Origin: the human T2T-CHM13v2.0 reference genome, Homo sapiens
Strand: one strand, 5' to 3'
Assembly (NCBI RefSeq): GCF_009914755.1
Contig: NC_060947.1
DNA: 64,000 bases
Part shown: one piece after another, positions 53,201 to 58,577 of the stretch
Numbering within the stretch: position 1 is the stretch's first letter
Layout: each line of letters starts with the position of its first letter
Program-made: the position numbers and the translations under genes
Notes under the pieces: model-generated
Told to the model about the DNA's origin: nothing
The model's input: only the letters and a program-made list of their open reading frames with translations
The model's database searches: none

Positions 53201-56200
53201 GCATTAAGATATATGACACAAATATTATTAGAGCTAAAGAGAGAGCTAGGTCCCAATACAGTAATAGCTGGACACTTCAACACCCCACTTTCAGCTTTGG
53301 ACAGATTTTCCAGACAGCAAATCAGCAAAGAAACATGCGACTTAATCTGCACTGTAGACCAAATGGATCCAATAGATATTTACAGAACATTTTATCCAAG
53401 AGATGCACATTCTTTTCCTCAGCACATGGATACTTCTCAAAGACAGATCATATGTTAGGTCACAAGACAAGTATTAAAAGATTCATAAAAATGAAATAAC
53501 ATTATGTATCTTCTCTGCCCACAACAAAATAACATTACAAATTAATAATCTAAGGAATTTTGGAAACTATACAATTACATGGAAATTAAACAATATGCTC
53601 CTGAATGACCAGTAGGTCAATGAAGAAATTAAGAAGGAAATTGAAAAAGTTTTTGAAACCAAAAGTTTTGTAATGGGAATACAACATACTAAAACCTATT
53701 GGATACAAGAAAGCAGTACTAAGAGCTAAGTTTATAGGTATAGGTGCCTACATCCAAAAAGAGGAAAAATTTCAAATTATCTAATGACGCATGTAAAAGA
53801 ACCAGAAAAGCAAGAGCATACTAAACCCAAAATTAGTAGAAGAAAACAAATAATAAATATCAGAGTAGAAGCAAATATAAATGAAATAAAGAAAACACAA
53901 CGAAAGATCAATGAAACAAAAAATTGGGTTTTTTTGAAAAGTTGAACAAAACTTATGAACCTTTAGCCAGACAAACTAAGAAGAAAACAGAGGAGATCCA
54001 AATAAATAAAATCAGGAATGAAAACGGAGACATTATAACTGATGCTGCAGAAATGTAAAGGATTATTAGATGCTACTATAAGCCACTATATGCCAATAAA
54101 TTGGATTTTCTAGAAGAAATGGACAAATTCCTAGATACATACAATCTACTAAGATTGAACCAGGAAAGAATGCAAAACATTAACAGACCAATAACAAGTA
54201 ACATAATCAAAGCCATAATAAAAAGACTTTTAGTAAAGAAAAGCCTGGGACCTGATGGCTTCACTGCTGAATTCTACCAAACATTTAAAGAAGAACTAGT
54301 TCCAATCCTACTCAAACCATTTCAAAAAATAGAGGAGGAGGGACTACTTCCAAATTCATTCTATGCCAGTATTACCCTGATACCAAAACCAGACAAAGAC
54401 ACATCAGGAAAAGAAAACTACAAGCAAATATCTCTGATCAATATTGATGCAAAAGTCCTCAACAAAATACCAGCAAACCGAATTCAACAATACCTTAGAA
54501 AGATTATTCATCATGGCCAAATGGGATTTATCCCTGGGATGCAAGGATGGCTCATCATATGCACATTAATTAATGTGATTCATCATACATATTAACAGAA
54601 AGAAGGATGAAATGATTGCCATTCTAACTGGTGTGAGATGATATCTCATAGTGGTTTTGATTTGCATTTCTCTGATGGCCAGTGATGATGAGCATTTCTT
54701 CATGTGTTTTTTGGCTGCATAAATGTCTTCTTTTGAGAAGTGTCTGTTCATGTCCTTCGCCCACTTTTTGATGGGGTTGTTTGTTTTTTTCTTGTAAATT
54801 TGTTTGAGTTCATTGTAGATTCTGGATATTAGCCCTTTGTCAGATGAGTAGGATGCGAAAATTTTCTCCCATGTTGTAGGTTGCCTGTTCACTCTGATGG
54901 TAGTTTCTTTTGCTGTGCAGAAGCTCTTTAGTTTAATTAGATCCCATTTGTCAATTTTGTCTTTTGTTGCCATTGCTTTTGGTGTTTTGGACATGAAGTC
55001 CTTGCCCACGCCTATGTCCTGAATGGTAATGCCTAGGTTTTCTTCTAGGGTTTTTATGGTTTTAGGTTTAACGTTTAAATCTTTAATCCATCTTGAATTG
55101 ATTTTTGTATAAGGTGTAAGGAAGGGATCCAGTTTCAGCTTTCTACATATGGCTAGCCAGTTTTCCCAGCACCATTTATTAAATAGGGAATCCTTTCCCC
55201 ATTGCTTGTTTTTCTCAGGTTTGTCAAAGATCAGATAGTTGTAGATATGCGGCATTATTTCTGAGGGCTCTGTTCTGTTCCATTGATCTATATCTCTGTT
55301 TTGGTATCAGTACCATGCTGTTTTGGTTACTGTAGCCTTGTAGTATAGTTTGAAGTCAGGTAGTGTGATGCCTCCAGCTTTGTTCTTTTGGCTTAGGATT
55401 GACTTGGCAATGCGGGCTCTTTTTTGGTTCCATATGAACTTTAAAGTAGTTTTTTCCAATTCTGTGAAGAAAGTCATTGGTAGCTTGATGGGGATGGCAT
55501 TGAATCTGTAAATTACCTTGGAGAGGATGCGGAGAAATAGGAACACTTTTACACTGTTGGTGGGACTGTAAACTAGTTCAACCATTGTGGAAGTCAGTGT
55601 GGCGATTCCTCAGGGATCTAGAACTAGAAATACCATTTGACCCAGCCATCCCATTACTGGGTATATACCCAAATGAGTATAAATCATGCTGCTATAAAGA
55701 CACATGCACACGTATGTTTATTGCGGCACTATTCACAATAGCAAAGACTTGGAACCAACCCAAATGTCCAACAATGATAGACTGGATTAAGAAAATGTGG
55801 CACATATACACCATGGAATACTATGCAGCCATAAAAAATGATGAGTTCATATCCTTTGTAGGGACATGGATGAAATTGGAAACCATCATTCTCAGTAAAC
55901 TATCGCAAGAACAAAAAACCAAACACCGCATATTCTCACTCATAGGTGGGAATTGAAGAATGAGATCACATGGACACAGGAAGGGGAATATCACACTCTG
56001 GGGACTGTGGTGGGGTTGGGGGAGGGGGGAGGGATAGTATTGGGAGATATACCTAATGCTAGATGACACATTAGTGGGTGCAGCGCACCAGCATGGCACA
56101 TGTATACATATGTAACTAACCTGCACAATGTGCACATGTACCCTAAAACTTAGAGTATAATAAAAAAAATAAAATAAAATAAAAAAAAAATAAATGAAAA

Positions 56201-58577
56201 AAAAAATATTTTTCTGATCATTAAATAGCAAGAAATAAAATAAGAAAAAAACGTATTCAGATCCCAAAAAAAAAAAAAAAAAGAAAGAAGGATGAAAGCT
56301 ATATGAGCATTTCAATTGATGCTGAAAAAGCATTTGATGAAATTCAACATCCCTTCAGGATAAAACCCTCAAAAAACTGAGGATAGAATGAACATACTTC
56401 AACATAATGAAAACTATATATGACAGACCTACAGCTATTATACTGAATGGGGAGAAACTCAAAGCTCTTCTTCTAAAATCTGGAACATGACAGGGATGCT
56501 CCCTGTTACCACTGTTATTCAACATAGTACTGGAAGTCTTAGCTACAGTTGTCAGATGAGAAGAAGATATAAAAGGCATTCAAATTGGAAAAGCTTGCAG
56601 ATGATAGGATCTTATATTTGGAAAAACCTAAAGACTCCACAAGAAACCCTTTACAACTGATAAACAAAATCAGTAAAGTTACAGGATATAAAATCAACAT
56701 ATAAAAGTCAGTAGCATTTCTATATGCCAACAGGGAGCAATGTGAAAAAAAATTTAAAAAGTAAACTCATTTACAATTGCCACACACAAAATTAAATACA
56801 TAGGAATTATCTTAACCAAAGTAGTAAAGATCACTATAATGATAACTATAAAACACAGGTGAAAGAAATTGAATAAGACATGAAAAAATGGAAAAATCTT
56901 TCATGTTTGTGGATTGGAAGAATCAATATTGTTAAAAATGTCCATACTACCCAAGGCAATCTGCAGATTCAATGCAATCCCTATCAAAATACTAATGACA
57001 TTCTTTACAGAAATAGAAAAAATAATCCTAAAACTTATATGGTACTACAAAAGACACAGAAGAGCCAAAGCTATCCTAAGCAAAAAGAACTAACCTGGAG
57101 GAATCACATTACCTGACTTCAAATTATATTACAGAGATATAGTAACCAGAACAGCATAGTATTGGCATAAAAACAGACAATGAAACAGAATAGAGAACCA
57201 ATGAAACAGAATAGAGAACCCAGAAACAAATCCACACACCTACAGTGAACTCATTTTTGTGACAAAGTTGCTAACAATATACACTGTGGAAAAGACAGTC
57301 TCTTCAATAAATGCTGCAAGAAAAACTGGATATCTATATGCAGAAGAATGAAACTAAGCCCCCATCTATAGCCATATATGAAAATCAAATAAAAATAGAT
57401 TAAATACTTAAATCTAAGACCTCGCACCGTGAAACTACTACAATAAAACATTGTAGAAAAGCTCCAGGACATTGATCTGAGCAAAGATTTCTTGAGCAAT
57501 ATCCCACAAGCACTGCCAACCTAAGCAAAAATTGTAAAATGGGATCACATGACATTAAAAATTCTTCTGCATAGCAAAGGATACAATCATCGAAGTGAAG
57601 AGACAATCCACAGAATCGGAGAAAATATTTGCAAACTACTCATCTGAGAAAGAATTCATAACCAGAATATATAAAGAGGTCAAACAACTCTACAGAAAAA
57701 ATTCAACAATCTGATTAAAAAATGGGCAAAATATCTGAATAGACATTTCTTTAAAGATGACATAAAACGGCAAACAGGCATATGAAAAGGTACTCAACAT
57801 CATAGATCATCAGAGAAATGCACATCAAAAGTACAATGAGATATTGTCTCATCTCAATTAAAATGGCTTATATCCAAAACACTGGCAACAACAAATGCTG
57901 GAGATCATGTGGAGAAAAGGGAGCTCTCATACACTGTTAGTGAGAATTAGTACAACCATTATGGAGAACAGTTTGGAGGTTCCTCAGAGAAGTAAAAATT
58001 GAGCTACCATATGATTCAACAACTCCACTGCTTGATATATACCCCCCAAAAAGAAAATTAGTATATTGAAGTGATATGTTGCAGTCCCGTGTTTGTTGCA
58101 GCATTGTTCACAGTAACTAAGATTTGGAAGCAACCTAAGTGTCCATCAATGGATGAATGGATAAAGAACATGTACATAAACACAATGGAGTACTATTTAG
58201 CCATAAAAAAGAATGAGATCCAGTCATTTGCAACAACATGGATGAAAATGAAAATTATTATGTTACATAAAATAATCCAGGCAGAGAAAGACAAACATCA
58301 CATGTTCTCACTTATTTTGGGGTTCAAAAAATTAAAACAATTGAACTCATGGACATAGTAGAAGGATGGTTACCAGAAGCTAGGAAGTGTAGTAGTACCA
58401 AGTTGCATGGAAGGCACGGATGCTTAATGCATACAAAAAAAATAGAAAGAATGTATAGGACCTATTATTTGATAGCACAATAGGGTGACTATAATCAATA
58501 ATAACTTAATTGTACATTTTAAGATAACTTAAAGAGTGTAATTGGATTATTTGTAACTCAAAGGATAAATGCTTCAG
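50298..58577 (+). mobile_element. Near-full-length L1MA1/2-like LINE-1 (5'UTR, decayed ORF1, ORF2 from 52848), interrupted by L1HS
   Basis: gagcaagatggtggagtag 5' motif; ORF1 remnants at ~51350-52330; ATGGCAGGAGTAAGTCCTTAC ORF2 start; L1MA 3'UTR. Confidence 0.88.
54613..56281 (+). mobile_element. L1HS Ta-1 insertion: 5' truncated and inverted, with a 3' transduction
   Basis: 16-bp TSD agaaagaaggatgaaa (54597-54612 and 56282-56297); inverted block 54613-55521; sense block 55519-56157; gatgacACAttag and cttaGagtat (Ta) and aaaTgaGtat (Ta-1). Confidence 0.96.

What the first reader, a model, noticed from the sequence alone, without database searches (positions are those of the whole stretch)
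56158..56297. L1HS insertion carries a 59-nt 3' transduction that tags its source element
Seen: after the L1 3' end there is a patterned A-tail (56158-56206), then non-L1 sequence TATTTTTCTGATCATTAAATAGCAAGAAATAAAATAAGAAAAAAACGTATTCAGATCCC (56207-56265) containing an AATAAA, then a second pure poly(A) (56266-56281), then the TSD. Established: L1 read-through past its weak poly(A) signal mobilises 3' flanking DNA. Inference: the 59-mer is the flank of a full-length, recently active source L1HS elsewhere, and the first tail is that source's genomic tail.
Basis: partly seen in the sequence, partly recalled or inferred. Interest (0 to 1): 0.8.

Follow-up and report, generated by a model that had tools for sequence, protein, structure and literature searches.

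The report
L1 insertion tagged by chr7 source flank
A young human L1 jumping-gene copy on chromosome X carries 59 bases of chromosome 7 DNA that identify the full-length parent copy it was transcribed from, which is a correct but ordinary example of a well-known process.

Summary
Window 54613-56281 is a 1,669-nt L1HS insertion. It is 5'-truncated and 5'-inverted, and identical 16-nt target-site duplications flank it. After the L1 3' end come a 49-nt patterned A-tail, a 59-nt non-L1 tag, and a pure A16.

In the whole T2T-CHM13 assembly the tag occurs at one other place, chr7 67,508,865-67,508,923 on the minus strand. It matches there 59 of 59, directly 3' of the tail of a full-length L1HS in a TPST1 intron. 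The first 10 tag bases are that element's own target-site duplication. An AATAAA lies 26 nt before the tag's end. The chr7 flank then continues as single-copy DNA with no second poly(A). So chr7 is the source locus and the chrX copy is its offspring by 3' transduction.

Two qualifications apply:
- The chr7 copy in CHM13 has ORF2 broken twice. Divergence puts the event at roughly 1-3 million years ago, so "recently active" is not shown.
- The patterned tail is older than the chr7 source. Nine CHM13 L1 copies share it, together with two body variants.

No sibling with the tag exists in CHM13. This is an ordinary instance of a textbook mechanism, so interest is low.

The parts
54597..54612 (+). 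Left target-site duplication, AGAAAGAAGGATGAAA (16 nt)
   Evidence: exactly two copies in the window, at 54597-54612 and 56282-56297. 0 of 100 shuffles gave 2 matches.
54613..55521 (-). Inverted 5' segment of the L1HS insertion. It is the antisense of ORF2, L1 nt 4445-5354 in chr7-source numbering. TGG at 55519-55521 is junction microhomology.
   Evidence: minus-strand match to the chr7 L1, 99.35% over 919 nt; end points and microhomology (2 nt with the target at the left end, 3 nt at the inversion junction). About 22-24 nt of L1 (nt 5355-5378) are missing between the two segments.
55519..56157 (+). Sense 3' segment of the L1HS insertion: the end of ORF2 plus the 3'UTR, from L1 nt 5379 to the 3' end
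   Evidence: plus-strand match at 99.2% over 752 nt, which also runs through the tail and tag; 3 substitutions against chr7 in the L1 body.
56158..56206 (+). Inherited patterned A-tail (49 nt), copied from the source's genomic tail and ending in TAAATG plus A10
   Evidence: the same pattern as the chr7 tail, with 1 substitution and 2 fewer A; the same pattern in 9 CHM13 L1 copies.
56207..56265 (+). 59-nt 3' transduced tag, the chr7 flank of the source. Bases 56207-56216 (TATTTTTCTG) are the source's own target-site duplication.
   Evidence: only two places in CHM13, this one and chr7 67,508,865-67,508,923 (-), 100% identical. AAAATATTTTTCTG also directly precedes the 5' end of the chr7 L1.
56234..56239 (+). 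AATAAA polyadenylation hexamer inside the tag, 26 nt before the tag's end. A second hexamer, ATTAAA, lies at 56220-56225.
56266..56281 (+). New poly(A), pure A16, added to the read-through transcript. The first 3 A could instead be templated, because chr7 continues with AAA.
56282..56297 (+). Right target-site duplication, AGAAAGAAGGATGAAA
54302..54587 (+). Upstream host DNA: an old, diverged L1 ORF2 remnant into which the L1HS inserted
   Evidence: 74.4% identity to L1 nt 3457-3745. The downstream flank, 56295-56593, matches L1 nt 3764-4066 at 73.4%. The two flanks therefore abut in L1 coordinates once the insertion and one copy of the duplication are removed.

Best explanation
Window 54613-56281 is one L1HS (Ta-type) retrotransposition event carrying a partnered 3' transduction.

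Proposed sequence of events:
1. A full-length L1HS lies antisense in a TPST1 intron on chr7 (CHM13 chr7 67,508,924-67,514,991, minus strand). It was transcribed through its own weak poly(A) signal and its genomic A-tail.
2. The transcript was cleaved and polyadenylated 59-62 nt into the flank, 26-29 nt after an AATAAA.
3. This RNA was inserted at Xq21 by target-primed reverse transcription. The bottom-strand nick fell at TTTCT/G and produced a 16-nt target-site duplication.
4. A second priming event on the top strand (twin priming) inverted the 5' part and truncated the copy to about 1.55 kb of L1.

What is shown:
- the anatomy of the insertion
- the unique mapping of the tag
- the source's target-site duplication inside the tag
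- the direction, chr7 to chrX

What is inferred:
- that the L1's own promoter and proteins drove the event
- that chr7 was the direct parent rather than a grandparent
- the age of about 1-3 million years
For: Structure and duplication:
- The composite structure is read directly from the sequence. The 16-nt duplication is present at both ends.

Mapping of the tag:
- Searches with 71 nt, 30 nt (up to 2 mismatches) and a 20-mer across the tail/tag border each found only the chrX and chr7 sites in 3.1 Gb.
- At chr7 the tag follows an L1HS tail and runs on into single-copy DNA with no second poly(A).
- A further 571 nt of chr7 flank is single copy.

The chr7 element:
- It spans 6,068 nt from its first base to the end of its tail.
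- AAAATATTTTTCTG borders it on both sides. The 3' copy forms the start of the tag.
- A TPST1 coding exon lies 47 nt beyond the tag on the opposite strand. The flank is therefore native chr7 DNA (PDB 5wrj, E 1.4e-35).

Polyadenylation:
- AATAAA lies 26 nt before the tag's end, and T-rich sequence follows the cleavage point in chr7.

Kinship:
- The tag is identical at 59 of 59 positions. The tails differ by 1 substitution and 2 A. The L1 bodies differ by 5 substitutions and 1 indel in 1,552 nt.
- Both copies carry the rare state at nt 5113. None of the 27 other L1HS copies scored has it. Two further copies found do.

Twin priming:
- The inverted segment (L1 nt 4445-5354) and the sense segment (nt 5379 to the end) are nearly adjacent in L1 coordinates. 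Microhomologies mark both joints.

Pre-insertion site:
- The flanking old-L1 remnants abut in L1 coordinates. They overlap by about 20 nt, against the 16-nt duplication.
Against: - No ape or human empty allele could be examined. The pre-insertion state is inferred only from the duplication and the continuity of the host repeat.
- The CHM13 chr7 allele cannot now encode ORF2p: it has a stop at codon 550 and a 1-nt deletion at nt 5261. The chrX copy lacks the deletion. It does not cover the stop, so whether the source was coding-competent at the time is not shown.
- The L1 body alone does not single out chr7. In the 631-nt 3' segment, at least 4 other L1HS copies score closer to the chrX copy than chr7 does. 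Attribution rests on the tag and tail.
- The nick site TTTCT/G departs from the recalled endonuclease consensus TTTT/AA.
Confidence: 0.93

Rival explanations
1. Indirect descent. The chrX copy was made from an unsampled tagged offspring of the chr7 element (a full-length copy carrying tail, tag and poly(A)), not from chr7 itself.
For: - The lineage is multi-generational. The patterned tail is shared by 9 copies.
- CHM13 is a single haplotype, so polymorphic intermediates could be missing.
Against: - No third copy of the tag exists in CHM13.
- An intermediate would usually leave its own poly(A), and often further flank, between the tag and the final tail. Here the tag is followed only by pure A16.
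Confidence: 0.05
2. The RNA did come from chr7, but it was not autonomous. Either it started from a promoter upstream of the L1, or it was mobilised in trans by proteins from another L1 because the chr7 ORF2 was already broken.
For: - The chr7 ORF2 has an in-frame stop at codon 550. That stop cannot be dated relative to the event, because the chrX copy begins at L1 nt 4445.
- The 5' truncation removes any record of the transcript's start.
Against: - All 4 chr7-private changes in the region that can be compared are absent from the chrX copy. This suggests the jump happened early, before the source decayed.
- L1 proteins act preferentially on the RNA that encoded them (established knowledge, recalled).
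Confidence: 0.1
3. Not retrotransposition. The shared 59-mer arose by segmental duplication or gene conversion between chr7 and chrX, or the transfer ran from chrX to chr7.
For: None beyond the bare sequence identity.
Against: - Identity stops exactly at a poly(A) on chrX, and a 16-nt target-site duplication follows.
- On chr7 the tag is continuous with single-copy intron DNA and a TPST1 exon.
- The tag begins with the duplication that also flanks the 5' end of the chr7 L1.
Confidence: 0.01

Closest known systems
L1 partnered 3' transduction: read-through of the L1 poly(A) signal that mobilises 3' flanking DNA. Moran 1999, Goodier 2000 and Pickeral 2000 were seen only as reference-list entries. 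Passages of PMC13009371 and PMC3812793 were read.
   Same: - The layout is L1 3' end, source tail, unique flank, new poly(A), target-site duplication.
- The flank maps directly 3' of a full-length L1.
- A poly(A) hexamer lies within 10-30 nt of the end. PMC13009371 reports this for 274 of 349 transductions.
- The length is under 100 nt. PMC13009371 reports this for 248 of 349.
   Different: Nothing mechanistic. It is a germline, assembly-resident event whose source is now coding-defective in CHM13. No siblings share the tag, unlike the prolific named source loci.
Twin-priming 5' inversion of L1 insertions (recalled; mentioned in the introduction passage of PMC13009371)
   Same: The inverted 5' segment and the sense 3' segment come from adjacent parts of L1. 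A small loss (about 22-24 nt) and short microhomologies mark the joints.
   Different: None noted.
L1 transduction lineages used to trace families, such as the L1RP, AC002980 and LRE3 families (names recalled) and Szak et al. 2003 (seen only as a reference-list entry; not held)
   Same: A heritable 3' mark identifies relatives. Here there are two marks: the unique 59-mer (2 copies) and the patterned tail ending in TAAATG (9 copies).
   Different: The wider family mark is a tail-derived A-rich pattern, not unique flanking DNA. It carries less information, and convergence cannot be fully excluded.

Membership tests
L1 3' transduction (partnered) | Non-L1 sequence lies between the L1 3' end with its first A-tail and a second poly(A) | tested here: met
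   49-nt tail, 59-nt tag, A16.
L1 3' transduction (partnered) | The whole composite is bracketed by one target-site duplication | tested here: met
   16 of 16 identical at 54597-54612 and 56282-56297.
L1 3' transduction (partnered) | The transduced sequence maps to the immediate 3' flank of a full-length L1 elsewhere | tested here: met
   chr7 67.51 Mb, a 6,068-nt element with its own target-site duplication. The tag starts with that duplication.
L1 3' transduction (partnered) | A polyadenylation signal lies 10-30 nt upstream of the transduction end in the source flank | tested here: met
   AATAAA lies 26 nt before the tag's end, or up to 29 nt if the ambiguous AAA is templated.
L1 3' transduction (partnered) | An empty pre-insertion allele lacks the L1, the tag and one copy of the duplication | not testable with these tools
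   No other human or ape assembly is available. Indirect support only: the host old-L1 flanks abut in L1 coordinates.
L1 endonuclease-dependent target-primed reverse transcription | A T-rich/purine nick site at the start of the duplication (recalled consensus TTTT/AA) | tested here: inconclusive
   Read: the bottom strand is TTTCT/GTTAA, a pyrimidine run followed by a purine but not the consensus. At the chr7 source site it is TTTT/GA.
L1HS Ta subfamily | The ACA trinucleotide in the 3'UTR (diagnostic recalled, not from a call) | tested here: met
   positions 5928-5930 read A, C, A in both the chrX copy and the chr7 source. Identity to other L1HS copies is 99% or more.
Retrotransposition-competent ('hot') source L1 | Full length with both ORF1 and ORF2 open | tested here: not met
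   ORF1 is open (338 codons). ORF2 is interrupted by a stop at codon 550 and by a 1-nt deletion at L1 nt 5261 in the CHM13 allele. Other alleles could not be tested.
Twin-priming 5' inversion | The inverted and direct segments come from adjacent L1 regions, with a small gap or overlap and junction microhomology | tested here: met
   inverted nt 4445-5354, direct nt 5379 to the end, 3-nt TGG at the joint, 2-nt overlap with the target at the left end.

The most novel reading that the evidence does not exclude
The patterned A-tail (a run of A, then TAAAA-type units, ending in TAAATG) is itself a heritable 3' mark. It has been copied through several rounds of retrotransposition.

It defines an L1-Ta sub-lineage of at least 9 copies in CHM13, on chr3 (two copies), chr4, chr6, chr7 and chrX (four copies). 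This window's insertion is a dated grandchild in that lineage: unknown progenitor, then the chr7 source, then chrX 94.05 Mb.

A tail-born microsatellite would then have been mobilised serially. A 2013 review said no case of L1 mobilising a microsatellite by transduction had been reported (PMC3812793, passage). I have not checked whether one has been reported since.
Probability: 0.6. Interest if true: 0.3.

Novelty: new member of a known kind. Interest (0 to 1): 0.18.

Why it matters
The case gives one firmly resolved parent-offspring pair of human L1s: a TPST1-intron L1HS on chr7 and a copy at Xq21. It also points to a small lineage traceable by a shared tail pattern. That is useful for annotating source elements and for calibrating tools that detect short transductions. 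PMC13009371 reports that short reads often miss these (passages). It does not change what is known about L1 biology. 3' transduction affects up to about a quarter of L1 insertions (passages). This source is coding-defective in CHM13 and has no other tagged offspring there.

Tried and rejected
Searches for siblings:
- I looked for siblings with a longer transduction using 571 nt of chr7 flank beyond the tag. Only chr7 itself matched.
- I looked for siblings with a shorter tag using its first 30 nt (up to 2 mismatches) and a 20-mer across the tail/tag border. Only the same two sites matched.

L1 body as evidence of parentage:
- I tested whether the L1 body alone identifies chr7 as the parent. 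It does not. In the 631-nt 3' segment, chr7 ties with many copies and 4 other copies score higher (only 40 of 2,603 candidates were scored). The variants I first took for pair-specific (nt 5877 and 5898) are lineage-wide.

Tool and format problems:
I replaced it with a plain 35-nt pattern.
- A Pfam scan of the chr7 flank exon gave nothing. A sequence search of solved structures identified it as TPST1.

Literature:
- No held paper contains both TPST1 and L1HS.
- Among papers on L1 transduction, none holds '7q11.21'.
- The supplements of PMC13009371 gave no hit for 7q11 or Xq21. One of its files was not searched.
- Szak 2003 and Pickeral 2000 are not held. Whether this pair is already catalogued there is open.
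- Two paper searches failed on term format.

Rejected readings:
- Segmental duplication or gene conversion.
- Transfer from chrX to chr7.
- The tag being part of L1. It was absent from the 3' ends of the 28 unrelated L1HS copies printed.
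Full report
**Observation**

- The L1 3'UTR ends at 56157.
- A patterned A-rich tail of 49 nt follows, at 56158-56206.
- A 59-nt stretch that is not L1 follows, at 56207-56265. It is 24% G+C and holds ATTAAA at 56220-56225 and AATAAA at 56234-56239.
- A pure A16 follows, at 56266-56281.
- The 16-mer AGAAAGAAGGATGAAA follows, at 56282-56297.

That 16-mer has one other copy in the 64-kb window, at 54597-54612, directly before the L1 sequence begins. None of 100 shuffles gave two matches. The 59-mer is single copy in the window. The insertion between the duplications is 1,669 nt.

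**Anatomy of the inserted L1**

I aligned the insertion to a full-length L1HS found later on chr7. This splits the L1 part into two segments.
- Window 54613-55521 is the reverse complement of L1 nt 4445-5354.
- Window 55519-56157 is L1 nt 5379 to the 3' end, in sense orientation.

About 22-24 nt of L1 are missing between the segments. A TGG is shared at the joint, and 2 nt are shared between the inverted end and the left duplication. This is the usual signature of twin priming, so the copy is both 5'-inverted and 5'-truncated.

The DNA on both sides is an old L1 ORF2 remnant, 73-74% identical to L1HS. Its two halves map to L1 nt 3457-3745 and 3764-4066. Extending these to the duplication edges gives an overlap of about 20 nt, against the 16-nt duplication. 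The host repeat is therefore continuous once the insertion and one copy of the duplication are removed. This is indirect evidence for the empty site. No other human or ape assembly was available.

**Where the tag comes from**

The window lies in the T2T-CHM13 assembly, which could be searched.
- A 71-nt query over the tag found two places in 3.1 Gb: the window itself and chr7 67,508,862-67,508,930 on the minus strand, 100% identical over 69 nt.
- The first 30 nt of the tag with up to 2 mismatches found the same two places.
- A 20-mer across the tail/tag border also found the same two places. In both pattern searches the reversed control patterns gave none.

Read on the minus strand, the chr7 site is an L1HS 3' end, the same patterned tail, and the same 59 nt. 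Unrelated DNA follows, with only three A and no second poly(A). A further 571 nt of that flank is single copy. On the opposite strand, 47 nt beyond the tag, lies a coding exon whose translation matches protein-tyrosine sulfotransferase 1 (5wrj, E 1.4e-35; a Pfam scan gave nothing). The tag is therefore native TPST1 intron DNA, and the L1 sits antisense with its tail 106 nt from that exon.

**The source element**

The chr7 L1 runs 6,068 nt from its first base to the end of its tail, so it is full length. AAAATATTTTTCTG directly precedes its 5' end. The same string, apart from the ambiguous A's, follows its tail. That is the chr7 element's own target-site duplication, and its 3' copy forms the first 10 bases of the chrX tag.

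This fixes the direction. The chr7 locus is where the flank is native, and the chrX copy was made from a transcript that read through into it. Cleavage fell 26 nt after the AATAAA, or up to 29 nt if the AAA that follows in chr7 was templated. T-rich sequence lies just downstream in chr7. This fits ordinary polyadenylation.

Passages of PMC13009371 report a signal within 10-30 nt for 274 of 349 transductions, and lengths under 100 nt for 248 of 349.

**Kinship and timing**
- The tag is identical at 59 of 59 positions.
- The tails differ by one substitution and two A.
- The L1 bodies differ by 5 substitutions and one 1-nt indel in 1,552 nt.

I polarised these differences against 28 other L1HS copies. 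These were the 30 loci returned from the 40 of 2,603 candidates scored, minus the window and chr7.
- Two changes are private to chrX, at nt 4659 and 5818.
- The indel and two substitutions are private to chr7, at nt 5261, 5338 and 5764.
- The chr7 state at nt 5736 is shared with 5 of the 28.

With three further relatives as outgroups, chr7 carries 10 private changes between nt 2076 and 5764. The chrX copy has none of the 4 that fall within its range. The jump therefore happened early in the life of the chr7 copy.

Two private substitutions in 1,552 nt correspond to about 1.3-2.6 million years at recalled rates of 1.0 and 0.5 x 10^-9 per site per year. The Poisson limits run from 0.16 to 9.3 million years. 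This is only an order of magnitude.

**State of the source now**

In CHM13 the chr7 copy has ORF1 open at 338 codons. ORF2 is interrupted by an in-frame stop at codon 550 (L1 nt 3637-3639) and by a 1-nt deletion at nt 5261. The deletion arose after the chrX copy was made. The stop cannot be dated, because the chrX copy does not reach it. 'Recently active' is therefore not supported for this haplotype, and other alleles could not be examined.

**The patterned tail is a lineage mark**

I printed the 3' ends of the 30 loci. Three unrelated-looking copies carried the same tail pattern. A genome-wide pattern search for the L1 end plus the start of the tail (1 mismatch allowed) then found 17 places.

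Nine of these have tails that continue to the same TAAATG, followed by their own A run:
- chr3 27.10 Mb
- chr3 176.99 Mb
- chr4 73.67 Mb
- chr6 67.24 Mb
- chr7 67.51 Mb (the source)
- chrX 4.29 Mb
- chrX 94.05 Mb (this window)
- chrX 129.33 Mb
- chrX 145.92 Mb

The nine also share body variants.
- The state at nt 5877 is present in 8 of 9, against 0 of 31 copies with other tails.
- The state at nt 5898 is present in 9 of 9, against 2 of 31.
- Fisher p is about 1e-7 for each.
- The 31 were not a random sample. 25 were chosen as best matches to the chrX segment and 6 by a partial tail match. If anything, this selection works against the contrast.

The rarer state at nt 5113 is held by chr7, this copy, chrX 129.33 Mb and chrX 145.92 Mb, but not by chr4. 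Four of the nine do not reach that position.

The three relatives fetched at greater length look like this:
- chrX 145.92 Mb is full length. It has a 1,275-codon ORF2 frame, but only 258 codons of ORF1 from an ATG.
- chrX 129.33 Mb is another 5'-inverted copy.
- chr4 is truncated at nt 635.

The patterned part, however, is older than the chr7 source and was inherited from its own progenitor. Whether the three untagged copies that share the nt 5113 state are offspring, siblings or the parent of chr7 cannot be decided from these data.

**Comparison with what is known**

This is a partnered L1 3' transduction with a twin-priming inversion, and both are textbook features. Up to about a quarter of L1 insertions carry transductions (passages of PMC3812793, and PMC13009371).

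I found no held paper naming this source. No paper contains both TPST1 and L1HS. No L1 transduction paper holds '7q11.21'. The searchable supplements of PMC13009371 gave no hit, with one file unread. PMC9311842 lists other source loci in the passages I saw. The early catalogues of reference-genome transductions (Szak 2003, Pickeral 2000, Goodier 2000) are not held, so the pair may already be listed there.

**Verdict**

I add the identified source, the source's duplication inside the tag, the inversion, and the tail-defined lineage. The event is ordinary, and interest is low.

Noticed in passing
window 54613-55521: The same L1HS insertion is 5'-inverted. The inverted segment is L1 nt 4445-5354 and the sense segment starts at nt 5379. 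About 22-24 nt are lost, and 2-3 nt microhomologies mark the joints. This is the twin-priming signature.
   Followed up: yes
L002 1226-1474 (+), chr7 of CHM13 near 67.5087 Mb: The source L1 lies antisense in a TPST1 intron. Its tail starts 106 nt from the donor site of a coding exon, and the tag ends 47 nt from it. Read-through past the tag's poly(A) site would have carried the antisense of a TPST1 exon. The 571 nt of flank that includes the exon is single copy, so no such copy exists in CHM13.
   Followed up: partly
L037, L039, L040, L042, L044, L046, L053 (CHM13 chr3 27.10 and 176.99 Mb, chr4 73.67 Mb, chr6 67.24 Mb, chrX 4.29, 129.33 and 145.92 Mb): Seven further L1 copies have the same patterned tail ending in TAAATG before their own poly(A). 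They also share body variants at nt 5877 and 5898. This points to a tail pattern inherited through retrotransposition.
   Followed up: partly
L044 (CHM13 chrX 4.29 Mb): This tail-family member reads G, A, G at nt 5928-5930 where the others read A, C, A. It also lacks the nt 5877 variant and is only 98.3% identical to chr7. It may be an older relative or a converted copy.
   Followed up: no
L013, L017, L018, L026 (CHM13 chr11 61.04 Mb, chr8 79.60 Mb, chr8 25.34 Mb, chr6 84.19 Mb): In the printout these unrelated L1HS copies show an A run, then 9-30 nt of non-A sequence, then a second long A run. They could be further short 3' transductions.
   Followed up: no
L055 and L056 (CHM13 chrX 145.92 Mb and 129.33 Mb): chrX 145.92 Mb is a full-length relative, with an ORF2 frame of 1,275 codons but only 258 ORF1 codons from an ATG. 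chrX 129.33 Mb is a second 5'-inverted copy of the same lineage (inverted nt 2564-4838, sense nt 4829 to the end).
   Followed up: partly
window 54302-54587 and 56295-56593: The insertion landed inside an old, roughly 74%-identical L1 ORF2 remnant in the same orientation. Young L1 sequence is therefore nested in ancient L1 sequence here.
   Followed up: partly
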